Virus record (IMG/VR): IMGVR_UViG_3300045988_139610
Reading direction: 5' to 3' (one strand)
Source of the DNA: a virus
Length of the DNA stretch: 64,000 bases
The position numbers and the translations under genes were made by a program. Shown piece by piece: positions 2,665-60,565 of the stretch. The stretch's first letter is position 1. Each line of letters opens with the position of its first letter. The notes under the pieces are model-generated. The model was not told the origin of the DNA and did not search any database. It saw only the letters and a program-made list of their open reading frames with translations.

Positions 2665-2734
2665 TAAATATCATCTCCTTAAAATTTGTTATTTTTATTA
2701 ATATTTTATTTAGAGTATATTTTATCACCTCCTT

Positions 2735-2778
2735 CCTTATATTACTGTATTAGCGTTAGTTATTTAAAAATTACCTAT
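2735..2778 (-). promoter_or_regulatory. class-B phage promoter/leader
   Basis: Sense AATAGGTAATTTTTAAATAACTAACGCTAATACAGTAATATAAGGAAGGAGGTGAT. Confidence 0.6.
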
Positions 2779-2796
2779 TCACCACAAATTTATTAA

Positions 2797-2970
2797 TTAT
2801 TTTCCGTATTCATCATTAATAAATTTAAAAATTGATATTATATCACATAAACATTCAGCCCCAGAACAGCTACGCATATTACATGTTTCGTCAAAGATAC
2901 AATCTTTACATTTTACAGTCCTTAATGCTTCATACAAACTATCTAAAGCTAAATTGAAATCGTCTCCCAT
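2797..2970 (-). CDS. small Cys-rich protein (57 aa)
   Basis: Hand translation MGDDFNLALDSLYEALRTVKCKDCIFDETCNMRSCSGAECLCDIISIFKFINDEYGK. The stop lies inside the 17-mer. Confidence 0.5.
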   Translation of the reverse strand: MGDDFNLALDSLYEALRTVKCKDCIFDETCNMRSCSGAECLCDIISIFKFINDEYGK

Positions 2971-2984
2971 AACATACCTCCTAT

Positions 2985-3218
2985 TTATTCTTCGTTTAAA
3001 TCTTTCATTATAAATAAACTGTTATTATCATTATCTGAAATTATTACATATCTACCTTCATTATTTATATTTATATTAGATGATAATTTGATATATTTTC
3101 CTGTTTGTAATGCATTAATATATAATTCACCTGTCATACTATCAAAATCCAAACTAACTCTCTCTCCTATCACTTCTTGTAAGTGATTTATTTTTGAATC
3201 TATGAATAACATTACCAT
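2985..3218 (-). CDS. hypothetical protein
   Basis: ORF in the co-directional array with AAGGAG upstream. No recognisable motif. Confidence 0.45.
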   Translation of the reverse strand: MVMLFIDSKINHLQEVIGERVSLDFDSMTGELYINALQTGKYIKLSSNININNEGRYVIISDNDNNSLFIMKDLNEE

Positions 3219-3260
3219 AACAACATCATCTCCTTAAAATTTATTATTTTTATTAATATT

Positions 3261-4305: not shown

Positions 4306-7300
4306 CTAACATTTTGAGAATCCACATTTACATTGTAAACAAGACCCCACAGTTGATAATTCTTCACCACACTCTGGACATTTATGATATCTACTTGCAA
4401 ATGCAGTTTCTCCATATTCTTTTATATAATCTAAATCTTCTTTAGTTAATGCGTTTTCTTCGATTTCTTTTTGCTTATCATGATTGTAATAATTTAAATC
4501 TACTAATTCTTTTAATACTTCTTCTTGTAAATCATTTTCTACATCAAGCAAACAATATAATATTGATGCACCACAGCTATTTCCTTTTGAAACTTCTATA
4601 CCTTTGCCTTTGGCTCTAACATAACTAGGACAAGTTCCAGCACCCTTAAATGATTTTTCTAATGATTTTAAATTACCTCCTATTCTTAAATCATGACTCA
4701 TTGCTATAGCTAAATTTTGTATCCCTAAAGCACATCCACCTTTAGATGAATTGGTAACATAAAAATCAAATATTCTCTTTTCTGTAGGTATAATTCCTAT
4801 ATGTAAAGTCATAGAACCACAACCACTTTTTATTTTTCTACGAATTTCAATTATTGATTCTGGTCTTTTTTCCCATTCACCTCTTAATAATTGTTCCTTT
4901 TCTTTATTATCTTTTTCGTTATCTATTGTTAATATACCTTTTCTTATTTCATTAGGTCTAAATATAGTACAACCACTTATACCATTTTTCCAACATTTAG
5001 TGTAAACATCTTTAGTATCTTCAAATGAATATTCAGTAGGAATATTAATTGTTTTACTACAACTCATATCAACATGATAAGACACTGTGCTTAATATGTT
5101 AACGTGGTCATCAACTGATAATTCCATAGCTGTAACAAATTTATTTTTATCAACTATATTTTCTTCAGAATTAAATTCTAACCATTTTTCATAAACATAG
5201 TCTCTCATTTTAAAAATTTCTATATTTTCGTCGTCCTGCCCACCTATTTTTATTTGTCTGTCATATTCTAAACTAAATATAGGTTCTAATGAAGAAGAAC
5301 AGTTATTACCATATGAAAGAGAAAGAGTCCCAGCAGGAGCTACACTTATCAATCTCCCATTACGTATACCATAAAATAAAATTTTATCTTTTATTTTTTC
5401 CCATTCTGGATATTTTTCAATATGTTTTCTTATAAAATTACTTTCAACGAATTTATTTTTGTCTAAAAAATTAAATGAACCTTTTTCTTTGGCTAAATCA
5501 CAGCTTGTATCGTAAGCATTTAAAGATATAAAATTCATCAATTCATCTGTAAATTTTATCGATTCTTCACTCCCGTATCTCATATTTAACATTGCAAACG
5601 TATCGGCTAATCCTGTTATTCCTAAACCAATAGTTCTTATATTTTTTTGATAATTTTCAAATTGTTTTAAAGGATAATTGTTAATATCTATTATATTATC
5701 CAACATTCTAACTGCGACGTTTATAACCTTTTGTAATTTATCGTAATCCATTTTCGCATCTTTTGTAAATGGGGCAATTACAAAATTGTGTAAAAATAAA
5801 CTCCCTAAATTACAAGCACCCATATAATCTTTTTTAATTCCTTCATCGTCATATAATATTCCACTAATATATTCAGCACAGTTATGTGCAACATATCCTT
5901 CTATTATGCCCCAATGATTTTTAGGTTCTGTAAAATCATATACTAATTTTTTACCATTATCTTTAATACTTCTTACATAAGGTACTCTTGATTTTATTAA
6001 TTTATTAAGTTTTATTTTTTTATAAGTTTGATAAAACCCTATAAATTGTGCAAATATTAATATGTCATCATATTTATTTATATTTACATCATAACTTTCT
6101 CTACATTCATATTCTCCATTTTTAAATTCTACCATATGTTTTTTATTTATTGTTAAATTTGCTGTTATTCCAAAATCTTTTTCTAAGGTATTTATAAGTT
6201 CTGTGGCAAATTCTTTACAAGTTGTTTTATAACTTACCCTTTTATTTGAATTAACACACCCATTGGCTGAAAAACAACCTTGTAAAAAGTTTGCCTTTTG
6301 ATTTAAATCCCATTCATTATAAGCTTTAGGCATTGCTCTATTTGGTAAAATTTCTTGTGAGAATTGAAATTTTTTCAGTAAATCATTATATCCTTGTAAA
6401 TATATTTCTCTATATGATTTCACAGTATACTTGTCATTTTCAAATAGATATCTTACGTCACCATCTTTCTCACCTATATTAACTTCAATGCCTTCATGTG
6501 ATTCACTATTTAATCTACTTAACTGTCCATCACCTTGTATAAATCCTAATTTAATATATAAATCGTCATCTTTGATTGTTTTATATATTTTTGGCATAAT
6601 TTTTTTACTTTTTAAATCTTTAGCTTTACATTCTTCTCCGTCTATTGTCATAAATCTATGGTCTGGAGTACAAGTTATTTCTTTTCCATTTGAAAATTTT
6701 AATTTAATTGTATCTTTTTCTCCATTACACCATACTTTTCCTTTTGTTATCTCACCGTCATAACTATAAATTAAAGGTTCTGTATTACATAATTCTTCCA
6801 ATGTTTTATAACCATCTTGTGTTAATAGTTTCATATCTCCTGTAAAACATGGGTTGGTAGTTACTATATTTTCCATGTAATAAAGATTGTTATTTTTATT
6901 CATGTTGTCATAATATAAAACTCCGTATTCACCTGTGTTATAAGCTTTTGTTATAATCAAATCCCACAGTTCTTTAGCATTAACTTCTTTTTTTGTTTTC
7001 CATTTTGACTCTTCATTAATTATTTCACCGTAATCACTCATACAAGGGTATCTTAAATATATTTTTTGATTATTTTCTACAGCCTTCATAAAATTATCAT
7101 CTACTAAAACTGATAAATTAAAATGAGTCAATCGTCCTTCGTCCCATGATTTTGATTCTAAAAAATCATATATATCTGGATGATAAATGCATAAACAACC
7201 CATATTAGCTCCTCTACGACTTCCTTGTAGGACGGTATGAGTTTGACTATCAAATGCATTCATAAAACTAACTACACCACTCGCTACAGCGTCATTTGAA

Positions 7301-7675: not shown

Positions 7676-8443
7676 TTAATCTGTTATTTCAACTTCATAA
7701 GAATACATACCGTCATATAGCCTTTTAGGTATTAAGTCAAAGTAATAATCTGCTACTTCTTTAATATTCTTTTCTTTATAATATTTATATATTTCAAATC
7801 CTTTCTTTTGAGTTTCATAATAGCCTAAATATTCACATTTCGATTTTCCTGTTTCTGGATTAATCATATTACAACGTATTACATATTTACCATTTACAGG
7901 AGTTGTTCCTATCAGAGAATCACCTCTTGATTTATCACATTTAGTAAATAAACTATTGATTGTATGTGGCACAAAAATACAAGTTTCTGGACTATAAATT
8001 TTATTACCTTTAACTAATATATCTTTGTCCAAATGCATCCTTTCCCCTTCTACTTCATAATAATTTTCATAATACCATTTAGCGAAATTCTGAAAGTTAT
8101 GCCATTCATCACAAACTTCGCATCCAATGTAAGTCGGATTTCTTTTATGGAATTTATCAGAATAACATCTTTTTAGCATATCGTGCCAAACATCATAACA
8201 TTTTGTAGCCTTACTATTTTTACTTACTTTATATTTACCTTCCCCTAAATACCCCACTCCATATATACTTCTCTCATAAGGACATTTTATTTCACCTTTT
8301 TTAAAATTTCTATATGCTTTATTTTTAACCGTCCAATCATATTGAGGAAAATAAACGTCTATATCTATAGCCTTCCTATAATTAATAATTATCATCTCAC
8401 TTCCGAAGTTATTTATATTCTTTTCACCAGTTCTATCATTCAT
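7676..8443 (-). CDS. free-standing homing-endonuclease-like protein with AP2-type C-terminal domain (paralog 1 of 4)
   Basis: Shares NINNFGSEM, CPYER, GVGYLGEGKYKVS, W..ML.RCY, LDKDILVKGNKIYSPETCI and GTTPVNGKY...LGYY.T...F..YK.YKE with 20481.., 24088.. and 54633... Confidence 0.55.
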   Translation of the reverse strand: MNDRTGEKNINNFGSEMIIINYRKAIDIDVYFPQYDWTVKNKAYRNFKKGEIKCPYERSIYGVGYLGEGKYKVSKNSKATKCYDVWHDMLKRCYSDKFHKRNPTYIGCEVCDEWHNFQNFAKWYYENYYEVEGERMHLDKDILVKGNKIYSPETCIFVPHTINSLFTKCDKSRGDSLIGTTPVNGKYVIRCNMINPETGKSKCEYLGYYETQKKGFEIYKYYKEKNIKEVADYYFDLIPKRLYDGMYSYEVEITD

Positions 8444-8896: not shown

Positions 8897-9361
8897 TTAA
8901 TATAAATTAATAACACCATAATCAATAAACATATTTTCTGGTTCTTTATTGATTATTTTCTTTGCCTTATCTAAATCAATCTCTTTGAATTTATTATAAT
9001 TCATATCAAATAATACACAGCTATACTTTAAATGATATGTTAATTCTAAATATTTCTCATATGATATTACTCTAAATTGTAAATGTATGTTTATATCTAA
9101 ATTATCAAAATAAAATTTTAATACAACTAAATAAAAATCTTTACATTTAATTTTATCATACGATAATGATGTTTCAAATGTATTAATAGCAGTCAATAAC
9201 TTATCTAACATAATATCTATATTTCTATCTGATACAACTAGAATTATATTTGTTAAATCAATTAAATTACAATATTCACTTTCTATATTAAATTTCCAGC
9301 AATTTAATAAATCATGTATTGTATCTATTGTTTCTGTTTTATTCCTTTGTATTACATCCAA
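8897..9361 (-). CDS. hypothetical protein
   Basis: ORF directly behind a class-B promoter, TTG start after GGGGTGAT. Confidence 0.5.
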   Translation of the reverse strand: MDVIQRNKTETIDTIHDLLNCWKFNIESEYCNLIDLTNIILVVSDRNIDIMLDKLLTAINTFETSLSYDKIKCKDFYLVVLKFYFDNLDINIHLQFRVISYEKYLELTYHLKYSCVLFDMNYNKFKEIDLDKAKKIINKEPENMFIDYGVINLY

Positions 9362-9372
9362 TTTACATCACC

Positions 9373-9417
9373 CCTTATATTTAATATATTAACAATTAAT
9401 GAGTAAAAATTACCTAT
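9373..9417 (-). promoter_or_regulatory. class-B phage promoter/leader
   Basis: Sense CATAGGTAATTTTTACTCATTAATTGTTAATATATTAAATATAAGGGGTGAT. Confidence 0.6.
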
Positions 9418-9419
9418 GA

Positions 9420-9638
9420 ATTTGAATTTTTATTATTGTCACTTTGAATTTATGAATGTAATGAATAAATGAAAAAGTGAAGAGGAAAGAGTTTAATCGG
9501 TTTTAAATTAAACTCTTGACGAATAGCTCCCTATATAATACTTTTTTATAAGAGATAACTATTTTTAATATTGAAATATCATAATTTTATCGTATTATTT
9601 TAAAAGTGTATTTTTAATTTTGTTGCTTTTTATCTTAA
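9420..9638 (-). repeat. conserved non-coding element E1 downstream of SF2 helicase-like gene (partner E2 at 59121..59361)
   Basis: Blocks shared with E2: TTTATCGTATTATTTTA (9586-9602), TATAAGAGA, GAATAGCTC (9521-9529). 11-bp perfect hairpin at 9487-9517. Confidence 0.6.
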
Positions 9639-10847
9639 TTATTGTTGTAACCAATTTTCTAATAAATTTCTCATTCTTTTAGATGGTATATAAATATTAA
9701 TTTTCTTTCCATCTCTTAACTGTGACCTAAATATCCATTGAATCAATTCTGATAATGCAAATGTATTCTCATCGACTTTAACGTCTTTACTCCTAAAGAA
9801 TTTTAATATCATTGGATTATTGAATATGTTTACTATATATGCTAAATTTTTCTTATGTCTATATTCATTAGTTGCTCTAGCATTACAGCTTACGAAACCT
9901 TTAGTGTATCCTTTACCTTTACATTTAGATTTATAATCTTTAAATGTAGTCCACATATTTTCTTGACTTTTTGATTTTACTTTATGTTGAAAATAATTTA
10001 GTATATTATTTTTTAATACATCAAATCCATCTCCCTTGCTTTCATCTTGTTTCATATACCAAGATTTACTTAACGCATATTTATCTTCACCTATTTTATT
10101 TAACTTTTTATCGTCACATATATTTACTAATTCTTTTATATGAGATAAATCTTCATGTTTATTATAATCCACAATTTCATATTTGTTATTAATTTTATTC
10201 ACTGATTTATATTCATACTCGACATTATTCATATCGTAATAATACCTTTGTATTTGCCCTGTAAACATATAAGTTAAGATATAAGTGTGCTTTAAAGCTC
10301 TCATAATAGAGACTGGGAAAGTCCATAATATAAAGCAATTATCATATATGTAACAATCTCCTTTTTCAATTGCATTTTTATATTTAAATAATGTCCCTTT
10401 GTAATTTTTATCAATCCATGTTAACTTACCATCTTCAGATACATCAACTTTATCTCTAAGCAATATTTCTCTATCTGATTTAGTTATTTTTATTTCTTCT
10501 AAAACATTAAATACCTCGTCAAGTATTAAAGTGTAATTATACTCTTTTAGATATTTCAAAGTGCTTTCATCTATCATAGCAAATAGTGAATGCGTGGATA
10601 CGATATTCTTACCTTGACTTAACAATTTGTTAAAGTCTTTTAATTTAGAACCTTCACCTCTGTCTGTTTTAGGTTCATAGAAAGCTCTATCTACACACCC
10701 ATCTAACACTCTTTGTATTTCATCTAAATAAGGTGTAATGTAAATAAATTTTTTATTTGTGTTTGTATTCATATAATCGATTGCCCAGCTTGTTTTACCT
10801 GCTCCTGGTATGCAATCAACTACTGTTACTTTGCATTGATTTTCCAT
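9639..10847 (-). CDS. SF2 helicase-like P-loop ATPase (paralog 1)
   Basis: Walker A PGAGKTS, ITPYL, STHSLF, Walker B LILDEVF, RATN, and motif VI-like LIQWIFRSQLRD. Confidence 0.6.
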   Translation of the reverse strand: MENQCKVTVVDCIPGAGKTSWAIDYMNTNTNKKFIYITPYLDEIQRVLDGCVDRAFYEPKTDRGEGSKLKDFNKLLSQGKNIVSTHSLFAMIDESTLKYLKEYNYTLILDEVFNVLEEIKITKSDREILLRDKVDVSEDGKLTWIDKNYKGTLFKYKNAIEKGDCYIYDNCFILWTFPVSIMRALKHTYILTYMFTGQIQRYYYDMNNVEYEYKSVNKINNKYEIVDYNKHEDLSHIKELVNICDDKKLNKIGEDKYALSKSWYMKQDESKGDGFDVLKNNILNYFQHKVKSKSQENMWTTFKDYKSKCKGKGYTKGFVSCNARATNEYRHKKNLAYIVNIFNNPMILKFFRSKDVKVDENTFALSELIQWIFRSQLRDGKKINIYIPSKRMRNLLENWLQQ

Positions 10848-12492: not shown

Positions 12493-12520
12493 AATATTAC
12501 CTCCTTTTAATTTATTATAT

Positions 12521-12563
12521 CTTATATTACAGTATTAACATAACTTACTTAAAAATTACCTAT
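12521..12563 (-). promoter_or_regulatory. class-B phage promoter/leader
   Basis: Sense CATAGGTAATTTTTAAGTAAGTTATGTTAATACTGTAATATAAG. Confidence 0.55.
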
Positions 12564-12609
12564 GGATGAAAATTATTTTATTAATTATTTTCATCGCCCT
12601 ATATTAATA

Positions 12610-12637
12610 AGTATACCATATTGTAAAAATTTGTCAA
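12610..12637 (-). promoter_or_regulatory. class-A sigma-A-type promoter
   Basis: Sense TTGACA-N16-TATACT. Confidence 0.6.
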
Positions 12638-12644
12638 TACTTTT

Positions 12645-12682
12645 TTAAATAAAAAATCACCACCTTTTTACAGATGGTGATG
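12645..12682 (-). terminator. rho-independent terminator after the DGQHR gene
   Basis: Sense ATCACCA-loop-TGGTGAT followed by TTTTTTATTT, starting 4 nt after the stop. Confidence 0.7.
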
Positions 12683-12685
12683 AAA

Positions 12686-16317: not shown

Positions 16318-16383
16318 ATTATTCTCCTCCTTATTTGTTATTTTTATTAATATTTTATTTACATTTTACATTTTTATCGCCTC

Positions 16384-16427
16384 CTTATATTACTATATTA
16401 ACTAAAGTTATTTAAAAATTACCTATG
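16384..16427 (-). promoter_or_regulatory. class-B phage promoter/leader with ATG-TAA start-stop unit
   Basis: Sense CATAGGTAATTTTTAAATAACTTTAGTTAATATAGTAATATAAGGAGGCGATAAAAATGTAA (ATG 16369-16371, TAA 16366-16368). Confidence 0.6.
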
Positions 16428-16429
16428 AT

Positions 16430-20480: not shown

Positions 20481-21260
20481 TTAGTCAGTTATTTCAACTT
20501 TATAAATATATAACGCTTGATATAATTCACTTGGTATTTTTCTTTTGAAGTAATCTGCAACTTCTTTTATGTTTCTCTCTTTGTAGTATTTATATATCTG
20601 AAATGCTTCCAACTCCGTATCATAATAACCTAAATGTTCTTGTTTTGATTTTCCAGTTTTTGGATTAATTATACGACATAGCACTCTATATTTACCATTT
20701 ACAGGAGTTGTCCCTATAACTGATTTACCTCTTTTATTGTCATTTTTAGTAAATAAGCCGTTGATAGTTTGAGGTACATATATGCAAGTCTCTGGGGAGT
20801 ATATTTTATTCCCTTTAACTAAAATGTCTTTATCTAAACACATTACTTCGTTTTTAACTGTATAATAGTTCTCACTATCCCAACTTCCAAAGTTTTGAAA
20901 ATTATGGAATTCTTCTGATGCTTCACATCCTATATATGTCGGTTCTTTTCCTTGATATTTGTCATCATAACATCTTTGTAACATATTATACCAACTTTGA
21001 AATACTCTAGTTAATTTCCCATTTTCGCTTACTTTATATTCCCCTTCGCCTAAATAGCCTATTTCAAAATATCTTCTTTCATATGGGCATTTTATATTTC
21101 CCTTTTTAAAATTTTGATATTTTGCTCCTTTAAAAGTCCAATTATATTCTGGAAAATATACATCAATATCCATACATCCTCTATACTCGACTATAACCAT
21201 CTCACTACCAAAGTTATTTATATTTCTTTCTCCTATCCTATTAATTTGATTTCTTCCCAT
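20481..21260 (-). CDS. homing-endonuclease-like protein, AP2-type C-terminus (paralog 2 of 4)
   Basis: Same motif set as 7676..8443. GGAGG lies 9 nt before the ATG at 21258-21260 (MGRNQINRIGE), inside the primase 3' end. Confidence 0.55.
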   Translation of the reverse strand: MGRNQINRIGERNINNFGSEMVIVEYRGCMDIDVYFPEYNWTFKGAKYQNFKKGNIKCPYERRYFEIGYLGEGEYKVSENGKLTRVFQSWYNMLQRCYDDKYQGKEPTYIGCEASEEFHNFQNFGSWDSENYYTVKNEVMCLDKDILVKGNKIYSPETCIYVPQTINGLFTKNDNKRGKSVIGTTPVNGKYRVLCRIINPKTGKSKQEHLGYYDTELEAFQIYKYYKERNIKEVADYFKRKIPSELYQALYIYKVEITD

Positions 21261-21265
21261 ATTAA

Positions 21266-22279
21266 TCATCCTCCTATAATACATTCATCACAAAGTTTTT
21301 CAAATATTTCTTTCCCCTGGTCTGATGGAGATACTTTACTTCCTTTTTTCATATATTTATTTTCTTTATCAATCATTACTTTTATTTTTATATCTCGCAT
21401 AAAACAGCACGATTTAATAGTTTGAATATCTCGTTTTATAGCGTCTATTATTAAACCTTCGTCCATACACAAGACTATTTCTGAAACACCTAATTTTAAT
21501 AATTGTTCTACTTGAGTTATACTTATTTGGTTACCCCCTAATGCCGTAGTATTATGTACTCCGAAACTATCACATTGAAGCACAGATTTCTCTGCCTCGA
21601 AGATATATACCTCTTTACTTTCTTTGATGTATTCTTTATTCTGATATAGACCATAAAGATATTTGTGCTTAGGAAAAGGGATTAAAGGAAGGTATTTGAA
21701 ATTTGTTATTTCGTCTGAATCCAAATCTATACGACCCATGACTCCTATAATTTCTCCATGTTCATTATAATGAGGTATTGTAATGCGATTGTTCTCTTCA
21801 GAAAATCCTATATTAAATTTAACTTGACTCGAAGGTAATATACCGTCATCTGCGAAACGTTTAAACCATTTATAACCACTATTATATTCTTCTAAAACAC
21901 TTTCATCATAAGTCACTTCCTTTTCTTCATCTTCATAAGGTACATATAAGCTATCGAAGAAACCATCAAATAATACCTCTTCCTCTGGTTGATAATTACC
22001 TTCTATTTTCTTACCTAACATAGTTTGTGTTGTTTTTAATACTTCTCTATAGGTTAAACCTGTATGAGTAGCTATTAAACCGAATAAATCCCCATTATAA
22101 GACGTTGTAAAATCTGTAGCTGATAAATTATCATTTAATTTGATTCTACATCCACTAGGGTTATCTCCTCCTACTTTTGCACACCTAATCTCTTTATCTG
22201 TTATATTAATACTATGATAATTATAATAACTTAATATTTTTTCGATTTGTTCTGGATTATTTTTTAAATACTCTTTCAT
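21266..22279 (-). CDS. dnaG: DNA primase (Toprim domain)
   Basis: Toprim-like YIFEAEKSVLQ and LCMDEG. Sits directly downstream of dnaB. Ends with a genuine TGA stop (21266-21268). Confidence 0.65.
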   Translation of the reverse strand: MKEYLKNNPEQIEKILSYYNYHSINITDKEIRCAKVGGDNPSGCRIKLNDNLSATDFTTSYNGDLFGLIATHTGLTYREVLKTTQTMLGKKIEGNYQPEEEVLFDGFFDSLYVPYEDEEKEVTYDESVLEEYNSGYKWFKRFADDGILPSSQVKFNIGFSEENNRITIPHYNEHGEIIGVMGRIDLDSDEITNFKYLPLIPFPKHKYLYGLYQNKEYIKESKEVYIFEAEKSVLQCDSFGVHNTTALGGNQISITQVEQLLKLGVSEIVLCMDEGLIIDAIKRDIQTIKSCCFMRDIKIKVMIDKENKYMKKGSKVSPSDQGKEIFEKLCDECIIGG

Positions 22280-23852: not shown

Positions 23853-23922
23853 ATCACATCACCTCTTTCTTCAACCAATTTCTTATGTCCCTCATTATAA
23901 TACATTTTCTATCACTCCTTTC

Positions 23923-23966
23923 CTTATATTATCGTATTAACATTAATTCACTAAAAATTACCTATG
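23923..23966 (-). promoter_or_regulatory. class-B phage promoter/leader with 19-codon leader ORF overlapping the dnaB start
   Basis: Sense CATAGGTAATTTTTAGTGAATTAATGTTAATACGATAATATAAGGAAAGGAGTGATAGAAAATG. The leader ORF MYYNEGHKKLVEERGDVIC ends at a TAA overlapping the dnaB ATG. Confidence 0.55.
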
Positions 23967-24045
23967 AATTTATAAAAATTTTGACCTTTTATGCGCCGTT
24001 CTAAGCGTTTTAAATTTCTTCATTGATAATTTATACCTTACAAAT

Positions 24046-24074
24046 ATAGCTCAAGTCGATTAAACTTGAGCTAT
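24046..24074 (-). terminator. 11-bp perfect hairpin after HE paralog 3 (weak T-tract)
   Basis: ATAGCTCAAGT-7 nt-ACTTGAGCTAT followed by ATTTGT. Confidence 0.4.
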
Positions 24075-24087
24075 TTATTAATTATTT

Positions 24088-24879
24088 TTAATCTGTTATT
24101 TCTACCTTATAATTGTATAATGTATCATATAATTTTCTTGGTATTAAATTTTTATAATATTCTGCAACCTCTTTAATATATTGTTCTTTGAATTCTTTAT
24201 AAACTTTAAATGCTTTTTGTGGTGTATCATACGACCCTAAATATTTTGTTTTACTTTTATTTTCTTCAAAATCATATATACTAAAACTTGCTTGAAATTT
24301 TTTATCTCGTTTATTATAATGTACGCCTATAGGATATTCCCCTCGTTTATTACCCCTTTTAGTAAATAATATATTTATATTATTGGGTACAAACACGCAA
24401 TTATCTGGTGAATATATTTTATTCCCTTTATTTAGAATATCTTTATCTAAACACATTTTTTCATTATCAACCTCATAATAATTATTATCATACCACTCTG
24501 CAAAATTCTGAAAACACAACCATTCTTCACAGACTTTGCAATTAATATATGTTGGACGTTTTTTATGAAGTTTATCATCGTAACATCTTTTTAGCATATC
24601 GTGCCAAACATCATAACATTTTGTATTTTTACAATTTTCACTTACTTTATATTTACCTTCCCCTATATAAGCAACACCATAAACTCTTCTCTCATATGGA
24701 CAACTAATTTTGCCTTTTTTGAAATTATCATATGATACATTCTTGGCAATCCAATTATATTCTGTGAAACAAACATCAATATCTCTATTCATTCTGTATC
24801 CCACTATTATCATCTTACTACCAAAGTTATTGTAACCAATTTCCCCAACTCTATCTATCTTACTCCCCATAACCATCAC
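24088..24879 (-). CDS. homing-endonuclease-like protein, AP2-type C-terminus (paralog 3 of 4)
   Basis: Same motif set: CPYERRVYGVAYIGEGKYKVS, WHDMLKRCY, LDKDILNKGNKIYSPDNC. Confidence 0.55.
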   Translation of the reverse strand: MMVMGSKIDRVGEIGYNNFGSKMIIVGYRMNRDIDVCFTEYNWIAKNVSYDNFKKGKISCPYERRVYGVAYIGEGKYKVSENCKNTKCYDVWHDMLKRCYDDKLHKKRPTYINCKVCEEWLCFQNFAEWYDNNYYEVDNEKMCLDKDILNKGNKIYSPDNCVFVPNNINILFTKRGNKRGEYPIGVHYNKRDKKFQASFSIYDFEENKSKTKYLGSYDTPQKAFKVYKEFKEQYIKEVAEYYKNLIPRKLYDTLYNYKVEITD

Positions 24880-30378: not shown

Positions 30379-30464
30379 TACACATCTCTCCTTTTATTAA
30401 TTATTTTTAATTTGTTATTTTTATTTATATCTTATAACTAATATATTCTACATTTTAATCACCC

Positions 30465-30508
30465 CTTATATTATCGTATTAACAATTCTAACTTCAAAAT
30501 TACCTATG
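30465..30508 (-). promoter_or_regulatory. class-B phage promoter/leader with ATG-TAG start-stop unit
   Basis: Sense CATAGGTAATTTTGAAGTTAGAATTGTTAATACGATAATATAAGGGGTGATTAAAATGTAG (ATG 30451-30453). Confidence 0.6.
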
Positions 30509-30517
30509 ATTTAAAAT

Positions 30518-30643
30518 TTATCTATTCATATAATATACATTAAATTCCATATCTTCACTTATTATTGTAATCTTAGGATATCTATCTGCTATTTCTTTTA
30601 CTTTATTTACAGCACCGTATACATTATGAGTTGTATATTTTTC
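30518..30643 (-). pseudogene. C-terminal fragment of a ~75-aa phage gene split by the IS
   Basis: Reads EKYTTHNVYGAVNKVKEIADRYPKITIISEDMEFNVYYMNR*, in frame with the fragment at 32445..32554 once the IS and one TSD copy are removed. Confidence 0.7.
30636..30643. repeat. target-site duplication, left copy (TATTTTTC)
   Basis: Identical 8-mer at 32445-32452, immediately flanking the IS ends. Confidence 0.8.
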
Positions 30644-30683
30644 GGGTATACAACTTTAATTGTGGAAAAGAAAAGAGAGTGAA

Positions 30684-33748: not shown

Positions 33749-33827
33749 ATATACATCTCTCCTTTATTAATCATTTTTATTAATATTTTATTTTGGCACT
33801 TCATATATTTTACATTTTAATCACCTC

Positions 33828-33870
33828 TTATATTAGTATATTAACATAACCATATATAAAATTACCTATG
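33828..33870 (-). promoter_or_regulatory. class-B phage promoter/leader with ATG-TAA start-stop unit
   Basis: Sense CATAGGTAATTTTATATATGGTTATGTTAATATACTAATATAAGAGGTGATTAAAATGTAA (ATG 33813-33815). Confidence 0.6.
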
Positions 33871-33893
33871 AATTATTATTTTTTATATCTTAA

Positions 33894-34025
33894 ACTATAT
33901 ATTATTTCTCCTATTATTAATGACACTAAAACTACTACATAAGGAGTTACAAATTCTACTCGAAAAATTAATACTAGAGATAAGATTATAATAATACATC
34001 TTATAATCAAATCTTTTAAATTCAT
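33894..34025 (-). CDS. possible 43-aa hydrophobic peptide
   Basis: GAAGGAGGTGAAGAGAA precedes the ATG. MNLKDLIIRCIIIILSLVLIFRSR... The ATG overlaps the TGA of the upstream small ORF (ATGA). Confidence 0.3.
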
Positions 34026-34198
34026 TTCTCTTCACCTCCTTCTATTAACTCAAAAAATTTACCGATACTATATATTCTATCACAATATTCAACTAAGTAT
34101 TTTTCTCTATCTCTTTGTCTTAAATCCATTCTTGCAGAATATATTGTGTTATAAACTTTCACTACTTTTAAACTACCATTAGTTATTAATTTTATCAT
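34022..34198 (-). CDS. small hypothetical protein (58 aa)
   Basis: Hand translation MIKLITNGSLKVVKVYNTIYSARMDLRQRDREKYLVEYCDRIYSIGKFFELIEGGEEK. Below the track cut-off. Confidence 0.45.
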   Translation of the reverse strand: MIKLITNGSLKVVKVYNTIYSARMDLRQRDREKYLVEYCDRIYSIGKFFELIEGGEEK

Positions 34199-34262
34199 AT
34201 TAACATCTCTCCTTTTTTTTATTAATTATTTTTATTTACTTCCTATTTCATATTAATTTCTT

Positions 34263-34427
34263 CTATTCTAACTCTTCCAATGTTCCTTCTACGAATACTG
34301 TCTTGACGCACTCTTTAGTGTCTTTATAATAAAAGAAACATTTCTCGCATTGTTTGTTAGATAACAACTCACACACTTCATTTGAATCAAGCTTTTTCAA
34401 TATATCTTTTAATTCTTCTATTGTCAT
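34263..34427 (-). CDS. small Cys-containing protein (54 aa)
   Basis: MTIEELKDILKKLDSNEVCELLSNKQCEKCFFYYKDTKECVKTVFVEGTLEELE. Driven by a class-A promoter. Confidence 0.45.
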   Translation of the reverse strand: MTIEELKDILKKLDSNEVCELLSNKQCEKCFFYYKDTKECVKTVFVEGTLEELE

Positions 34428-34454
34428 ATTAAATCTCACTCCTTAACATAAATA

Positions 34455-34482
34455 AGTATATCATATTGTAAATATTCGTCAA
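34455..34482 (-). promoter_or_regulatory. class-A sigma-A-type promoter
   Basis: Sense TTGACG-N16-TATACT, preceded by the 17-mer. Confidence 0.6.
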
Positions 34483-34491
34483 TACTTTTTA

Positions 34492-39690: not shown

Positions 39691-39775
39691 ATTTCTCACT
39701 CTCCCTTATTAATTATTTTTAATCCTTTACTATTTTTGTCGAGGTATTTCAATAAATTTACATTTTAATCACCTT

Positions 39776-39817
39776 CTTATTATAGTATTATCAAAACTGT
39801 TATTGAAATTACCTATA
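39776..39817 (-). promoter_or_regulatory. class-B phage promoter/leader with ATG-TAA start-stop unit
   Basis: Sense TATAGGTAATTTCAATAACAGTTTTGATAATACTATAATAAGAAGGTGATTAAAATGTAA (ATG 39761-39763). Confidence 0.55.
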
Positions 39818-39860
39818 ATTTAAAATTTATATTTCATATTATCTCCTCCTTATAGTAATA

Positions 39861-39888
39861 ATTATATCATACCTATATTATTTGTCAA
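39861..39888 (-). promoter_or_regulatory. class-A sigma-A-type promoter, tandem with a class-B promoter
   Basis: Sense TTGACA-N16-TATAAT. Confidence 0.65.
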
Positions 39889-39901
39889 TACATTTTATTA
39901 A

Positions 39902-44206: not shown

Positions 44207-44230
44207 ATTATCTACCCCCTTATATTAATA

Positions 44231-44260
44231 ATTATACTATTTTTTTATTTATATTGTCAA
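44231..44260 (-). promoter_or_regulatory. class-A sigma-A-type promoter
   Basis: Sense TTGACA-N18-TATAAT. Confidence 0.6.
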
Positions 44261-44355
44261 TACTTTTTATTAATTATTTTTATTAACTTTTCTTAATTTT
44301 TAACAATTAATTAGTGTGCTGTATGCACCTCCTCTATAGAAATGTATTTAATCCT

Positions 44356-45185: not shown

Positions 45186-45285
45186 ATCTTTCTCTCCTTT
45201 TCATTAATAATTTTCTTGCTCTATCCATTCTTTTTCTTCTTTATCCCATACCCTAAACTTTAAGTTTTTCATATTACCACCCTCC

Positions 45286-45328
45286 TTATATTACTATATT
45301 AACATTAGCGTCATAAAAATTACCTATG
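45286..45328 (-). promoter_or_regulatory. class-B phage promoter/leader
   Basis: Sense CATAGGTAATTTTTATGACGCTAATGTTAATATAGTAATATAAGGAGGGTGGTAATATG (22-codon ORF MKNLKFRVWDKEEKEWIEQENY). Confidence 0.6.
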
Positions 45329-45360
45329 ATTATTATTTTATATTATTTTCATCCTCCTTT

Positions 45361-45388
45361 AAAAAATTAGAGGGAAATTAATCCCTCT
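45361..45388 (-). terminator. rho-independent terminator after the ParR-like gene
   Basis: Sense AGAGGGA-TTAATT-TCCCTCT followed by AATTTTTT. Confidence 0.7.
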
Positions 45389-46560: not shown

Positions 46561-46620
46561 AATATCACTCTCCAAAATATTGATTATTATACACCTCTAC
46601 CCTATAGGTTATATAATAAA

Positions 46621-47520: not shown

Positions 47521-47623
47521 AATATCTCCTCCTATTTTATTAATTATTTTTACTTAAACTTTCTAAATCTCCATAAAATTCCATCATATCATCCTCTCAA
47601 ACCTAGTAATATCAATTGTTCGT

Positions 47624-47680
47624 ATAAAAGTGTACCCGCTTTGCATGAAAGTGTACCTGCTTTACATAAAAGTGTACCCT
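47624..47680. repeat. three 21-bp direct repeats (iteron-like)
   Basis: AAAGTGTACC at 47627, 47648 and 47669. Units are ATAAAAGTGTACCCGCTTTGC, ATGAAAGTGTACCTGCTTTAC and ATAAAAGTGTACCCT... Confidence 0.8.
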
Positions 47681-47681
47681 A

Positions 47682-47710: not shown

Positions 47711-47720
47711 AAAATAAATA

Positions 47721-49508: not shown

Positions 49509-49536
49509 ATTATTATTCTCCTTTTATTAATTATTT

Positions 49537-59070: not shown

Positions 59071-59099
59071 ATTATATTATAATTTACAAATTAAGTCAA
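59071..59099 (-). promoter_or_regulatory. class-A sigma-A-type promoter
   Basis: Sense TTGACT-N17-TATAAT. Confidence 0.65.
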
Positions 59100-59120
59100 T
59101 AAATTTATTAATTATTTTTA

Positions 59121-59361
59121 TAGTCAATTTTGAATTATGAACTTGTGAATAATGAAAAAATTGTGACGAATGAACTAATTGATTTTTGATTAGTTCATGA
59201 GGAATAGCTCACTGCAAGTGCAATTATAATTAATTATTTTATACTATTACTTTTTAATACCTCTACTATAAGAGATTGTAATTTTTACCTTTAAAATGTG
59301 CTATATTTATCGTATTATTTTAACTATGTATTTTTAAATTTATCACTTTTAAAGTACTATG
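59121..59361 (-). repeat. conserved non-coding element E2 (partner of E1 at 9420..9638)
   Basis: Shares TTTATCGTATTATTTTA (59307-59323), TATAAGAGAT and GAATAGCTC (59202-59210). 10-bp perfect hairpin at 59170-59198 whose stem sequence differs from that of E1. Confidence 0.6.
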
Positions 59362-60565
59362 TTATTGGTTTAACCAAGATTCTAATAATTTTCTCATTCT
59401 AATTGAAGGTATATAAATATTAATCTTTTGATTATCTCTAATTCTACTTCTAAACATCCATTGAATTAACATTGATAATGCATAGTCATTTTCTTCTATT
59501 GTCACTCCCTTACCTTTAAAGAATTTATTAATCATTGGGTTATTATAGATATTAATCAAATAAGCTAAATTTTCTTTATGTTTATAATCATTTGTTGCTC
59601 TTATATTTAAGGATACAAACCCTTTAGTATATCCTTTACCTTTGATTTGACTCTCAAAATCTTTAAATGTCGTATACATATTATCTGATGATTTTCCTTT
59701 ACATATATTTCTAAAATAATTTACAGTATTATTTTTAAGTTCCTTCATTATTTCTTTTTTATCTGCTTTCATATACCATGATTTAGATAACGCTGTTGTT
59801 TTATCTCCTATATTATTTAATTTTCCATCATAAATATTTATTAAATCTTTATATTTGTTTCCACCTTCCTCTTTGTAATTTTTTAATCTATATTGTCTAT
59901 CTCCTATATCTATAACTGACTTATATTCATATTCTACTTGATTCATATCATAGTAATAAGCTTGAATTTGACTTTTAAATTTATAAGTTAATATATAAAT
60001 ATGTTTAAATGCTTTAAATATGTTGACGGGAAATGTCCATAGAATCATCGTATTTTCAAATAAATATACATCTCCATTTTCGCAACTATTTTTTAAACTG
60101 GTAAATTTACCAACATAACCAGAATCTATCCAATGTACTTTATCTTCTTCGTCAACTTCTATTGTTCCATGCTCTAATAACATACTTATGTCAGATTTAG
60201 AGATTTTTAAATCTTCTATCACATCAAAGACTTCGTCGAGAAATAAAATATATTCTCCCTTTTCTATTTCATCTATAACCTCTTTTGATATTCCTTTAAA
60301 TAAACTATGCGTAGATACAATGTTATACCCTTCTTTTAATAATTCATAAAAATGATTCTTTTTACTTCCTTTCCCTAATCTTTCATTAGGTTTCTTAAAT
60401 TCTCTATTATCACATTCTTTTTCAATCCTATCTAGCTCTGTAAGAAATGGAGTTATAAAAATAAATCTATCAAATATTTCCTCCTTCATATATTGTATTG
60501 CGTAACTTGTTTTACCAGCTCCAGGTGGGACAATCAACCACCGTTATTTTACATTGTTCATTCAT
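59362..60565 (-). CDS. SF2 helicase-like P-loop ATPase (paralog 2); frame broken (+1) just before Walker A
   Basis: ATG at 60563-60565 behind AAAGGAG gives MNEQCKITVVDC, then CCC ACC TGG AGC TGG TAA. Skipping one C (run at 60527-60529) gives ..VVDCPPGAGKTS.., colinear with paralog 1 (..VVDCIPGAGKTS..). Length is 1204 nt (3n+1). Confidence 0.6.

What the first reader, a model, noticed from the sequence alone, without database searches (positions are those of the whole stretch)
9420..9638. Two diverged copies of a ~230-bp non-coding element follow the two SF2 helicase-like paralogs, with a compensated hairpin
E1 (9420-9638) and E2 (59121-59361) each lie immediately 3' of a paralogous helicase-like gene. 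By eye the proteins are roughly 55-60 percent identical. The elements share ordered blocks. In + strand coordinates these are TTTATCGTATTATTTTA (9586 and 59307, identical 17-mers), TATAAGAGA (9547 and 59267), GAATAGCTC (9521 and 59202) and a terminal TTCA-rich stretch (sense ..TTTTTCATTTATTCATTACATTCATAAATTCAAAGTGAC.. against ..TTTTTCATTATTCACAAGTTCATAATTCAAAATTGAC..). Both have a perfect hairpin at the same relative position, but with different stem sequences (E1 AAGAGTTTAAT/ATTAAACTCTT at 9487-9517; E2 ATGAACTAAT/ATTAGTTCAT at 59170-59198). The structure, not the sequence, has been conserved. Gene and element therefore appear to be inherited or duplicated as one unit. Candidate roles are a cis-acting site for the ATPase (origin or loading site with TTCA-type short repeats), a structured 3' UTR or sRNA, or the end of a mobile cassette. 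Copy 2 lies next to the tyrosine recombinase.
Basis: seen in the sequence. Interest (0 to 1): 0.7.

Follow-up and report, generated by a model that had tools for sequence, protein, structure and literature searches.

The report
Three-hairpin element trailing phage helicase genes
Two copies of a previously undescribed, roughly 110-base folded non-coding element sit just after two related helicase-like genes of a large SPbeta-like phage; relatives keep the fold through compensating mutations, but its job is inferred rather than shown (most likely an RNA signal at the end of the helicase message).

Summary
E1 and E2 are colinear and far more alike than real intergenic DNA from the same window (core z = 8.0). 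They are the only two hits of a covariance model in 64 kb (103-108 and 98-99 bits; next best 17).

I collected 23 distinct related copies from about 135-kb SPbeta-like phages or phage-plasmids. Of these, 21 lie 81-196 nt after a YonV-type gene. I confirmed that gene as an SF2 two-RecA helicase fold.

The "TTCA repeats" are not iterons. They are the arms and loops of a second, two-part hairpin (P3), which also shows compensatory changes. A mini-hairpin (P1) is present in E2 and deleted in E1.

Nothing in Rfam matches. There is no ORF, no canonical terminator, no DnaA-box cluster and no GC-skew turn. A more conventional iteron plus AT-rich site lies elsewhere, at 47619-47721.

Best reading (about 0.4): a cis-acting structured RNA in the helicase gene's 3' untranslated region, working in 3'-end formation, attenuation or protein binding. 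The origin or loading-site reading is weaker (about 0.2). This is a new motif family, of moderate interest.

The parts
9639..10847 (-). YonV-type SF2 helicase-like gene, paralog 1 (402 aa)
   Evidence: ORF. phrog_2467 at 2e-80. Homolog of SPbeta YonV at 44% identity. Pfam YonV_C on its relatives. AlphaFold pLDDT 89 with an SF2 two-RecA fold; best PDB matches are XPD, DinG, Hna and RecQ.
9550..9638 (-). E1 'block A': conserved A/T-rich spacer after the stop codon. It contains the invariant TAAAATAATACGATAAA and the CTCTTATAAAAAAGTATTATATAG box.
   Evidence: z = 4.3 against real intergenic DNA. Conserved across Y1-, Y2- and Y3-type loci. Possible AU-only hairpin UUUAAAAU/AUUUUAAA; the strand could not be resolved.
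9436..9549 (-). E1 core as delimited by the covariance models (P2 + P3; P1 is deleted in this lineage)
   Evidence: 108 bits with model R1 and 103 bits with R2. RNA fold -17.9 kcal/mol, z = -3.2, 0 of 200 shuffles as good.
9487..9517 (-). E1 hairpin P2 (AAGAGUUUAAU / AUUAAACUCUU, loop UUAAAACCG), flanked by UUCGUC and UCCUC
   Evidence: Covariation: 96% of cells paired, 5 of 7 pairs change on both sides, 0 of 500 shuffles reach this.
9439..9480 (-). E1 hairpin P3: outer stem UCACUUU/AAAGUGA, internal loop UUC/UC, inner stem AUUUAU/AUAAAU, loop UCAUUACAUUC.
9362..9425 (-). Not part of the element: a copy of the phage's repeated 'class II' promoter-like module (TTCATAGGTAATTTT-N13-TGTTAATAT...AAGGGGTGATGTAA) driving the next gene
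   Evidence: The same module occurs in at least 8 other intergenic gaps.
59362..60537 (-). YonV-type SF2 helicase-like gene, paralog 2 (391 aa)
59230..59361 (-). E2 'block A', with a ~40-nt insertion relative to E1
59121..59229 (-). E2 core as delimited by the covariance models (P1 + P2 + P3)
   Evidence: 99 bits with R1 and 97.6 bits with R2. RNA fold -15.4 kcal/mol, z = -2.7.
59210..59220 (-). E2 mini-hairpin P1 (CACU-UGC-AGUG)
   Evidence: Five stem variants in the family: CAC/GUG, CACU/AGUG, ACC/GGU, UCC/GGA and UGC/GCA. L010 is a one-mismatch intermediate.
59170..59198 (-). E2 hairpin P2 (AUGAACUAAU / AUUAGUUCAU, loop CAAAAAUCA). The flanks are swapped relative to E1: UUCCUC on the 5' side and UCGUC on the 3' side.
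59123..59167 (-). E2 hairpin P3 (GUCA..AUUUU / AAAAU UGAC outer stem, AUUAU/AUAAU inner stem)
59071..59119 (-). Not part of the element: a sigma-A-type promoter module (AAAAATAATTAATAAA, then TTGACT-17-TATAAT) for the next gene
   Evidence: 11 of 12 consensus match. The same module occurs in other gaps.

Best explanation
E1 and E2 are two copies of a clade-specific structured element. Its universal core is about 105-115 nt: an optional mini-hairpin P1, a conserved linker (A)GCUAUUCGUC, a 9-11-bp hairpin P2 with an A-rich loop, the linker UCCUC, and a two-part hairpin P3. P3's unpaired UUC, UC and UCA..UUC residues are nearly invariant. A further 90-130 nt of conserved A/T-rich spacer joins the core to the stop codon of a YonV-type SF2 helicase-like gene. 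The element always lies on the sense strand, and a separate promoter for the next gene follows it.

The most likely mode of action is as RNA, in cis, in the 3' untranslated tail of the helicase message. The hairpins would define, stabilise or pause the 3' end. The invariant single-stranded pyrimidine motifs would be the contact points for a protein factor: host Rho or NusA/NusG, a phage protein, or the helicase-like protein itself. That factor would decide whether transcription or the message stops there or runs on into the next unit.

Shown: the sequence and structure conservation, the position, the orientation, the linkage to the gene, the absence of coding potential and the absence of any match to known RNA families.

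Inferred: that the active form is RNA rather than single-stranded DNA, and that the function is 3'-end control.
For: 1. The structure is under selection. For P2, 96% of cells are paired, 5 of 7 pairs change on both sides, 0 of 500 shuffles reach this, and slid controls give 16-68% (MAFFT alignment A3, not fitted to the structure).
2. P3 is predicted independently in all 19 sequences folded. Watson-Crick swaps occur at several positions. Examples are CACUUU/AAAGUG, CAAUUU/AAAUUG, CACAUU/AAUGUG, CAUUUU/AAAAUG and UCUUUC/GAAAGA, and for the inner stem AUUUAU/AUAAAU versus AUUUGU/ACAAAU.
3. On the model-fitted alignment A6, 92.6% of cells are paired, 14 of 21 pairs change on both sides, and 0 of 500 shuffles reach this.
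4. The E1 and E2 cores fold better than shuffles (z = -3.2 and -2.7).
5. Position and orientation are constant. Of 23 copies, 21 lie 81-196 nt after a co-oriented YonV-type gene. Where a promoter can be recognised, as in E1 and E2, the element lies upstream of it. In L014 the next gene's ribosome-binding site follows P3 within about 35 nt with no promoter in between. The element must therefore be transcribed through there.
6. The element has no ORF of 20 aa or more.
7. On the sense strand the cores are the 2nd and 4th most C-over-G 78-nt windows in 64 kb. Their C-G values are +13 and +12, against a mean of -6.5 and sd of 5.1. This is the composition expected of untranslated, factor-accessible RNA.
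8. Primary-sequence conservation is concentrated in unpaired positions while the stems vary. That is the usual signature of a protein-recognised folded strand.
Against: - There are no transcript data.
- P2 is not a canonical intrinsic terminator. The T-run starts 9-10 nt after the stem, and the terminator scan found nothing. Genuine terminators in this phage have G+C-containing stems and, in the clearest cases, adjacent T-runs.
- P3 is weak energetically (-0.8 to -9.3 kcal/mol).
- In the unfitted alignment and the per-sequence folds, the changes that keep P2 and P3 paired are Watson-Crick on both sides, never a G-U wobble. An RNA would be expected to show some wobble. This pattern fits a DNA-level hairpin or palindrome equally well.
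- A structured P3 argues against a classical unstructured Rho-loading site.
- The sample is phylogenetically narrow, with about 9 independent P2 variants. Recombination between copies is evident, so counts of 'cells' overstate the number of independent events.
- More distant YonV genes lack the element: 70%, 63% and 61% identical relatives, Clostridioides phages and SPbeta.
Confidence: 0.4

Rival explanations
1. DNA-level site. The folded strand (single-stranded DNA hairpins) or the palindromes in duplex DNA act as a loading or recognition site for the adjacent SF2 helicase-like ATPase, or as a replication-associated signal such as an origin component or lagging-strand initiation site.
For: - The link to helicase genes is strong (21 of 23 copies).
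- In L195 the element follows an unrelated 515-aa SF2 helicase. There it directly abuts a 160-bp unit repeated 2.1 times, with four ~30-bp iteron-like units and a 24-nt AT-rich tandem array.
- The compensating changes in P2 and P3 are Watson-Crick, with no wobble pairs.
- In L321 a YonV gene sits directly upstream of DnaB. In L317 it lies next to a Rep_3 initiator gene.
- The replication origin of SPbeta-type phages is unknown (PMC8270828).
Against: - The supposed iterons are hairpin arms and loops, not direct repeats at helical phasing.
- DnaA boxes are not enriched or clustered near E1 or E2.
- Cumulative GC skew is monotonic through both sites.
- There are two or three copies per genome, sometimes with an identical P2 in direct orientation (L012 and L027 on one contig).
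- The window already has DnaB, primase and a Pol III alpha-like polymerase at 16.4-23.9 kb.
- A more canonical site, 3 x 21-bp direct repeats plus 8-bp-period AT repeats, lies at 47619-47721.
- No Rep_3 gene or Rep_3-type iterons occur in the window.
- XPD/DinG-like monomeric SF2 proteins are not known origin binders (my own knowledge).
Confidence: 0.2
2. The core is an independent or 3'-UTR-derived small RNA acting in trans. The single-stranded UCCUC next to P2 would be an anti-Shine-Dalgarno seed that represses target messages.
For: - UUCCUC is present in every copy, on one or the other side of P2.
- A/T-rich -10-like boxes (TATTATATAG, TATAAT, TAATAT) lie just upstream of P1 in many copies.
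- SPbeta's own yonT-yonV operon carries a small regulatory RNA, SR6 (PMC5848175). This shows that small RNAs exist in this gene neighbourhood.
Against: - No conserved -35/-10 pair is shared by all members. L195, L027 and L280 lack the box.
- The -10-like box is so close to P1 that a start there would remove P1's 5' arm.
- No terminator follows P3.
- No target was identified.
- No toxin-like ORF overlaps E1 or E2.
Confidence: 0.12
3. The element is a processive antitermination signal that acts on RNA polymerase in cis. It would resemble HK022 put (paired hairpins, two copies per genome) or lambda nut (a linear box plus a hairpin with a purine-rich loop).
For: - There are two to three copies per genome.
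- It has multiple hairpins with conserved unpaired residues.
- The P2 loop is A-rich (UUAAAACCG, AAAAGGC, GAAAACCGU, CAAAAAUCA).
Against: - The element lies at the end of a transcription unit, just before a new promoter, rather than shortly after a promoter and ahead of terminators.
- It has no sequence or model similarity to any Rfam family.
- No N- or Q-like gene was identified.
Confidence: 0.08
4. The element is a site-specific recombination site or cassette boundary. P2 (9-11-bp inverted arms, 7-9-bp spacer) would be a lox/dif-like core for the nearby tyrosine recombinase, or the element would be an attC-like 3' end of a mobile gene cassette.
For: - The arm and spacer geometry of P2 resembles recombinase core sites.
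- Homology between the two loci starts at the gene and ends exactly at the end of P3.
- A tyrosine recombinase gene (60709-61614) precedes paralog 2 here and in L014.
Against: - E1-type loci have no recombinase nearby.
- The arms differ between near-identical phages.
- Two directly repeated identical P2 sites on one 133-kb contig (L012, L027) would delete tens of kilobases between them if they were active.
- The conserved attC end motifs (RYYYAAC / GTTRRRY) are absent from the sequences read.
- P1 and P3 are unexplained by this reading.
Confidence: 0.05
5. No function. The similarity is a relic of the gene duplication, kept high by recombination (gene conversion) between copies.
For: Mosaicism is evident. 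L013's 3' half is almost identical to L003's although its gene is only 72% identical. The same P2 type follows Y1-, Y2- and Y3-type genes.
Against: - Drift or conversion does not produce paired compensatory changes in three helices while keeping loops invariant.
- Third codon positions of the adjacent genes are down to 50.5% identity, while the core stands 8 sd above the intergenic background.
Confidence: 0.05

Closest known systems
Structured 3'-UTR / operon-end RNA elements (terminator and stabiliser hairpins, factor-dependent terminators in Firmicutes)
   Same: The element lies after the stop codon and before the next promoter, on the sense strand. Its hairpins are conserved in structure rather than sequence. 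A pyrimidine-rich, G-poor tail follows P2.
   Different: The T-run is 9-10 nt from the stem, so the canonical definition fails. There are three helices plus about 100 nt of conserved spacer, and strictly conserved loop sequences. That is far more information than a terminator needs.
HK022 put RNAs and lambda nut sites (cis-acting phage RNA signals present in two diverged copies per genome)
   Same: Each genome carries two or three diverged copies. Hairpins are maintained by compensation. Conserved unpaired residues are presumably read by the transcription machinery or a protein.
   Different: The position is at the end of a unit rather than after an early promoter. There is no sequence or model similarity, and no cognate N-like protein is known. 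The resemblance is recalled from my own knowledge, not tested functionally.
Rho utilisation (rut) sites
   Same: The cores show extreme C-over-G composition on the transcript strand in untranslated RNA, with UC dinucleotides every 7-9 nt.
   Different: The tract is predicted to be base-paired (P3). Its sequence is conserved far beyond what a rut site requires.
Single-strand origins (ssoA type) and iteron origins
   Same: A strand-specific, about 100-230-nt non-coding, multi-hairpin element next to replication-type genes. In L195 it is adjacent to an iteron-like array.
   Different: It has no RSB or CS-6 (TAGCGT) motifs and no true direct repeats. There are several copies per genome and no skew or DnaA-box signature. 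A better iteron site lies elsewhere in the window.
Non-coding region downstream of yonV in Bacillus SPbeta-type phages
   Same: The same gene family is followed by a long non-coding gap (about 330 nt in SPbeta) containing nested hairpins. In SPbeta, SPR and Goe14 the sequence is GGGGGTG..TTGTTCA-N19-TGAACAA..CACCCCC, with TTCGTTCCTCAC in the loop.
   Different: There is no detectable sequence or model homology (best R1 hit in that locus 23.9 bits, inside the gene). phi3T and BUCT082 carry a different element at this position. Whether these are functional analogues is untested.

Membership tests
Any Rfam 15 family | Covariance-model score at or above the family's gathering threshold | tested here: not met
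   No hits in the whole window at gathering thresholds. The only hit at E <= 10 in 9300-9700 is VrrA at 13.9 bits against a threshold of 50. No hits in 11 related loci.
Canonical intrinsic (Rho-independent) terminator | A G+C-containing hairpin followed within 0-2 nt by a run of at least 5 T in 8 | tested here: not met
   The scan found no terminator-like sites in either region. P2 is followed by UCCUCUUCAC or UCGUCACAA before the T-run.
Rho-dependent terminator (rut site) | About 70-80 nt of untranslated RNA with C>G | tested here: met
   The E1 and E2 cores rank 2nd and 4th of all 78-nt sense-strand windows, with C-G of +13 and +12 against a mean of -6.5.
Rho-dependent terminator (rut site) | The tract is largely unstructured, and termination depends on Rho | tested here: inconclusive
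   P3 is predicted to pair over most of the tract, though weakly (-0.8 to -9.3 kcal/mol). Dependence on Rho cannot be tested with these tools.
Iteron-type replication origin | Three or more direct repeats of about 17-22 bp in helical phase, next to an AT-rich unwinding region | tested here: not met
   The TTCA units are 4-5 nt long, spaced 7-10 nt apart, and form the arms and loops of hairpin P3. A site that does meet this definition lies at 47619-47721.
Iteron-type replication origin | DnaA boxes or a cognate initiator gene nearby, and a GC-skew inflection | tested here: not met
   DnaA-box matches number 31 against 27 expected, with none clustered at E1 or E2. There is no Rep_3 homolog or Rep_3-type iteron in the window. 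Cumulative skew is monotonic.
Integron attC site | Terminal inverse-core and core motifs (RYYYAAC ... GTTRRRY) bracketing an imperfect palindrome, with an IntI-type integrase | tested here: not met
   The flanks are TTCGTCA and TTCCTC, or swapped. The nearby recombinase is a generic 301-aa Phage_integrase protein with a SAM-like N-terminal domain. IntI-specific features were not examined.
lox/dif-like tyrosine-recombinase core site | Inverted 9-13-bp arms around a 6-8-bp spacer | tested here: inconclusive
   P2 has 8-11-bp arms and a 7-9-nt spacer. However, the arms vary among near-identical phages, and identical direct copies coexist on one contig.
lox/dif-like tyrosine-recombinase core site | Recombination by the cognate enzyme | not testable with these tools
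The recombinase gene accompanies only the E2-lineage copy in the window and L014.
Type I toxin-antitoxin RNA (as SR6 in the SPbeta yonT-yonV operon) | A small hydrophobic toxin ORF overlapped by an antisense RNA | tested here: not met
   No conserved ORF of 20 aa or more lies inside E1 or E2. The SR6 model hits SPbeta upstream of yonV, not this element. One relative (L009) has a 29-aa hydrophobic ORF downstream of the element; I did not follow it up.
Spo0A-binding region (0A boxes, as in phi29) | Clustered TGNCGAA boxes at regulated promoters or origins | tested here: inconclusive
   Every copy read has one perfect TGACGAA next to P2, on the opposite strand. Window-wide there are 14 boxes against 8.8 expected, and 5 of 100 shuffles reach that. 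The host, and whether it sporulates, is unknown.
YonV / PF27199 protein family (the linked gene) | Sequence homology to SPbeta YonV and the YonV_C domain, with an SF2 helicase core | tested here: met
   44% identity to YonV over 99% of the length. All 120 relatives listed carry PF27199. The fold search gives XPD, DinG, Hna and RecQ at probability 1.0, TM about 0.5.

The most novel reading that the evidence does not exclude
The element is the dedicated nucleic-acid partner of the YonV-type helicase: a folded RNA or single-stranded DNA site on which the protein encoded immediately upstream loads or acts. Gene and substrate would then form a two-part module that duplicates and recombines together. 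This would be the first functional handle on a large family of phage SF2 ATPases with no known role (about 4,500 homologs, PF27199). It would also explain why other YonV clades carry their own, different conserved elements at the same position.
Probability: 0.15. Interest if true: 0.75.

Novelty: new member of a known kind. Interest (0 to 1): 0.45.

Why it matters
SPbeta-type phages and phage-plasmids are widespread in Firmicutes. Even so, their replication and most of their gene regulation are uncharacterised, by the field's own review (PMC8270828). YonV-type helicase-like proteins form a large family with no assigned function.

A non-coding element that is maintained by compensatory evolution in three helices, and that travels with these genes, is a concrete and testable lead. 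It could be an RNA signal controlling the end of the helicase message, or the site on which the protein works.

The element is also a candidate new RNA motif family for databases such as Rfam. In addition, the analysis corrects a tempting misreading: the short 'repeats' look like iterons but are hairpin arms.

Tried and rejected
- **Rfam and tRNA.** Rfam at gathering and permissive thresholds, and a tRNA/tmRNA scan, found nothing.
- **Small ORFs.** None is conserved on either strand.
- **Promoter and terminator scans.** No terminator was found. The promoter-like hits in the E1 region are on the opposite strand, and the counts are no better than shuffles.
- **Antisense promoter.** A TTGAAA-16-TATTAT on the opposite strand, inside the invariant 17-mer, recurs in E2 and L014. 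It is not conserved in L010, L013 or L015, so I left it open.
- **Spo0A boxes.** These are not enriched window-wide.
- **DnaA boxes.** These are not enriched.
- **Rep_3 iterons.** L317's Rep_3 iterons (CCCTTAAAAACACATAT) loosely resemble the CTTAWAAAA box in block A. There is no Rep_3 gene and no matching iteron in the window.
- **Genome-collection scan.** It returned only matches in taxonomically unrelated records. None passed the hairpin plus TC[CG]TC filter, so the host could not be identified this way.
- **The 16-mer ATTGCAACGGTTTCAG.** It lies downstream of more distant yonV genes. A scan returned 50 viral contigs, none showing homology to E1 or E2 in the flanking sequence I read.
- **Strand assignment.** RNAalifold on MAFFT alignments of the full spacer could not assign a strand: -8.1 kcal/mol on the sense strand against -10.9 on the antisense.
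- **Non-coding percent identities.** I discounted the values because the presumably non-homologous 3' part also scored 79%. The intergenic-null test replaced them.
Full report
**Setting**

The window is about 25% G+C, and all substantial ORFs are on the - strand. It comes from a large SPbeta-like phage.
- It encodes a ribonucleotide reductase, thymidine kinase, Dcm methylase, thymidylate synthase, a Pol III alpha-like polymerase, an exonuclease, a primase and a DnaB-type helicase.
- It also encodes a ParM/ALP-type actin-like protein. This fits the phage-plasmid lifestyle seen in relatives that carry a Rep_3 initiator.
- The two genes that precede the finding are 9639-10847 and 59362-60537. They are 55% identical and belong to phrog_2467.
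- Both are homologs of SPbeta YonV, at 44% identity for paralog 1. Their closest database relatives are in about 132-kb Clostridioides phages.
- All 120 listed relatives carry Pfam PF27199 (YonV_C), and a few carry ResIII.
- An AlphaFold model (pLDDT 89.4, pTM 0.86) has XPD, DinG, Hna, WRN/RecQ and DEAD-box helicases as its best PDB neighbours (probability 1.0, TM about 0.5).
- 'SF2 helicase-like' is therefore correct.

The blocks and hairpins are at the stated coordinates, apart from one 17-mer that is off by one base.

I compared the two copies with 1000 random segments of real intergenic DNA from the same window:

| Region | z | Random segments scoring as high |
|---|---|---|
| Core | 8.0 | 0/1000 |
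| Spacer after the stop codon | 4.3 | 0/1000 |
| Post-hairpin block | 6.0 | 0/1000 |
| Last ~70 nt before the next gene | 2.3 | 34/1000 |

The last ~70 nt are not clearly homologous. In E1 they hold a copy of a 'class II' promoter-like module that recurs in at least 8 other gaps. In E2 they hold a sigma-A-type module (TTGACT-17-TATAAT behind AAAAATAATTAATAAA) that also recurs.

The true element therefore runs from the stop codon to about 9436 in E1 and about 59121 in E2. A covariance model built from the family finds only these two places in the window, at 108 and 99 bits. The next best hit is 17 bits.

**Relatives**

Protein-guided and pattern-guided scans of viral and metagenome collections, plus look-ups of homologous proteins, gave 23 distinct copies. 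All come from about 78-140-kb contigs of the same phage group or from short metagenome contigs.
- Of the 23, 21 lie 81-196 nt after a co-oriented YonV-type gene. These genes belong to three lineages: Y1, Y2, and a third seen in L027.
- There are two exceptions. L195 lies after an unrelated 515-aa SF2 helicase and a repeat array. L280 lies after an HNH endonuclease and a small ORF.
- The element is absent, by model search, from YonV loci that are 70%, 63%, 61% and 51% identical, from Clostridioides phages and from SPbeta.
- L321 (75% identical) keeps the spacer and a P2-like hairpin. It has a G+C-rich hairpin in place of P3.
- The element is mosaic. L013's 3' half matches L003's although their genes are 72% and 96% identical to paralog 1.
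- The same P2 sequence follows Y1, Y2 (L014) and Y3 (L027) genes. The gene and the element are thus linked by position, not by strict co-inheritance.

**Anatomy**

- It has 9 stem variants: AAGAGTTTAAT, AAGAGTTAA, AAGAATTAA, AGAGTTTGA, AGAAACTAATT, ATAAACTAATT, ATCATTTAATT, ATGAACTAAT and AAGAGTATAA.
- On a MAFFT alignment not fitted to any structure, its 7 outer pairs are 96% paired and 5 of them change on both sides. No shuffle reaches the observed values, and slid controls fall to 16-68%.
- Its loop is A-rich and partly conserved.
- Its flanks are TTCGTC(A) on the 5' side and TCCTC on the 3' side. In E2 and L195 the two are swapped.

- It is a second hairpin with four parts: an outer stem of 6-7 bp, an internal loop UUC/UC, an inner stem of 5-6 bp, and a 10-12-nt loop starting UCA and ending UUC.
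- Single-sequence folding recovers the same architecture in all 19 sequences folded.
- The 'diverged' positions are compensations. The outer stem appears as CACUUU/AAAGUG, CAAUUU/AAAUUG, CACAUU/AAUGUG, CAUUUU/AAAAUG and UCUUUC/GAAAGA. In L317 the inner stem changes from AUUUAU/AUAAAU to AUUUGU/ACAAAU.

*P1, a 3-4-bp mini-hairpin with a UGC or UAC loop*
- It precedes the linker in most copies and shows five stem variants plus a one-mismatch intermediate.
- It is deleted in the E1 lineage and truncated in L027.

*All helices together*
- A model with all the helices (21 pairs) scores every family member at 82-116 bits.
- On the resulting alignment, 92.6% of cells are paired and 14 of 21 pairs change on both sides. 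No shuffle (0 of 500) reaches these values, and slid controls give 22-56%.
- This alignment was fitted to the model, so it leans towards the structure.
- The E1 and E2 cores fold better than shuffles (z = -3.2 and -2.7).

**What the element is not**
- It matches no Rfam family and no tRNA or tmRNA.
- It is not coding.
- It is not a canonical terminator. In the clearest genuine terminators of this phage a T-run directly follows the stem.
- It is not an iteron array. The TTCA units are hairpin parts.
- It has no origin signature. DnaA boxes are not clustered there and GC skew shows no turn.
- The window has no Rep_3 gene or Rep_3 iterons.
- A better iteron plus AT-rich site lies at 47619-47721.

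**How it probably works**

The element is always on the gene strand, in untranslated sequence between a stop codon and the next promoter. In L014 it lies directly ahead of the next ribosome-binding site, so it must be transcribed there.

Its stems vary while its unpaired residues are almost invariant. On the sense strand, its cores are among the four most C-over-G 78-nt windows in 64 kb.

These features fit a folded strand read by a protein. The simplest version is an RNA module at the end of the helicase message. It would set, stabilise or regulate the 3' end, or control read-through into the next unit. I give this 0.4.

The main caveat is that the compensating changes in P2 and P3 are Watson-Crick, with no G-U pairs. 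This fits a DNA hairpin equally well.

That caveat, the helicase linkage and the L195 context keep a DNA-level loading or replication site alive at about 0.2. The other rivals are weaker:

| Rival | Confidence |
|---|---|
| Trans-acting small RNA | 0.12 |
| put/nut-like antitermination signal | 0.08 |
| Recombination site or cassette end | 0.05 |
| Non-functional relic | 0.05 |

**Wider pattern**

Other YonV clades also have long, conserved, hairpin-rich non-coding regions after the gene, but with different sequences.
- SPbeta, SPR and Goe14 share a nested-hairpin element. phi3T and BUCT082 share another.
- L313, L316, L319 and, inverted, L314 share CTAGTRATTGCAACGGTTTCAG.

This hints at a general 'YonV gene plus 3' structured element' arrangement. 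I did not test it formally.

**Verdict**

This is a real, statistically solid and previously undescribed structured element, limited to one phage clade. Its function is inferred. It is of moderate interest, and of higher interest if it proves to be the helicase's own substrate.

Noticed in passing
window gaps 449-874, 2665-3260, 12493-12685, 16318-16429, 23853-24087, 30379-30683, 33749-34491, 39700-39901, 45186-45388, 56756-56920, 60538-60708, and 9362-9425: A repeated promoter-like module occurs on the - strand: (T)TCATAGGTAATTTT - about 13 nt - (T)GTTAATAT(A)nTAATAT. In many copies it is followed by a Shine-Dalgarno sequence and a start-stop mini-ORF (AAGGrGGTGATTAAAATGTAA/TAG). It looks like a phage-specific promoter class with a conserved leader. 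The same module occurs in relatives (L195, L317).
   Followed up: partly
window gaps 33749-34491, 39700-39901, 44207-44355, 49009-49792, 61615-61779, 62945-63081, 63520-63657, 59071-59119; the motif also lies directly before many ribosome-binding sites: A second promoter class shows near-consensus sigma-A hexamers (TTGACA-17-TATAAT), in most copies behind the motif AAAAATAATTAATAAA. The same 16-mer also recurs immediately upstream of many Shine-Dalgarno sequences where no promoter is apparent. Its role is therefore unclear (UP element, translational enhancer or spacer).
   Followed up: no
window 47619-47721 (gap 47521-47720): Three tandem 21-bp direct repeats (TTYRYATRAAAGTGTACCYGC on the + strand) lie directly next to four AT-rich repeats with an 8-bp period. 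This is an iteron or centromere-like site. It sits between a Bro-N gene (46846-47520) and a 298-aa gene, about 1 kb from a ParM/ALP-type actin-like gene (45646-46575).
   Followed up: partly
window 7676-8443, 20481-21284, 24088-24879, 54633-55409: Four paralogous HNH endonuclease genes (56-68% identical to each other; phrog_953) are scattered through the replication and nucleotide-metabolism region. They look like free-standing homing endonucleases. L280 carries two more homologs next to its copy of the element.
   Followed up: no
L195 2592-2960: A 160-bp unit is repeated 2.1 times. Each unit holds two ~30-bp partly palindromic boxes (TACAATTTCAAAGTGGCCAAAACTTGGAATT). A 24-nt-period AT-rich tandem array follows. 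The whole region lies between an SF2 helicase gene and the element, and looks like an origin.
   Followed up: partly
L313 ~3800, L314 ~3860 (inverted), L316 ~1890, L319/L320 ~2770; also L325, L327, L331, L333, L339, L354 and others: More distant yonV genes are followed by a different conserved motif, CTAGTRATTGCAACGGTTTCAG(AGG). An exact 16-mer from it, with extended flanks (CTCAAACCCAGTG...), recurs in intergenic DNA of many unrelated 20-60-kb viral contigs, often inside a longer inverted repeat. In L354 it lies near a gene that reads like a large terminase; that reading is by eye and not annotated. It is not in Rfam.
   Followed up: partly
L312 4340-4420 (SPbeta), L373, L377; L374/L375 carry a different element: Downstream of yonV, Bacillus SPbeta, SPR and Goe14 share a nested-hairpin element (GGGGGTG..TTGTTCA-N19-TGAACAA..CACCCCC). 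phi3T and BUCT082 share another (CGTCCGTAAAG..CTTTACGGCCG..). Neither is annotated.
   Followed up: no
L009 ~4440-4530: Directly after its copy of the element, L009 has a 29-aa strongly hydrophobic ORF (MEDKFHKYLYIGLCCVVLSLIFIILGIVI) that resembles a type I toxin.
   Followed up: no
L317 460-650: Five iteron-like boxes ((A/T)CCCTTAAAAACACATAT) lie upstream of a divergently oriented Rep_3 initiator gene, about 1 kb from that phage's yonV gene. This marks these phages as likely phage-plasmids.
   Followed up: partly
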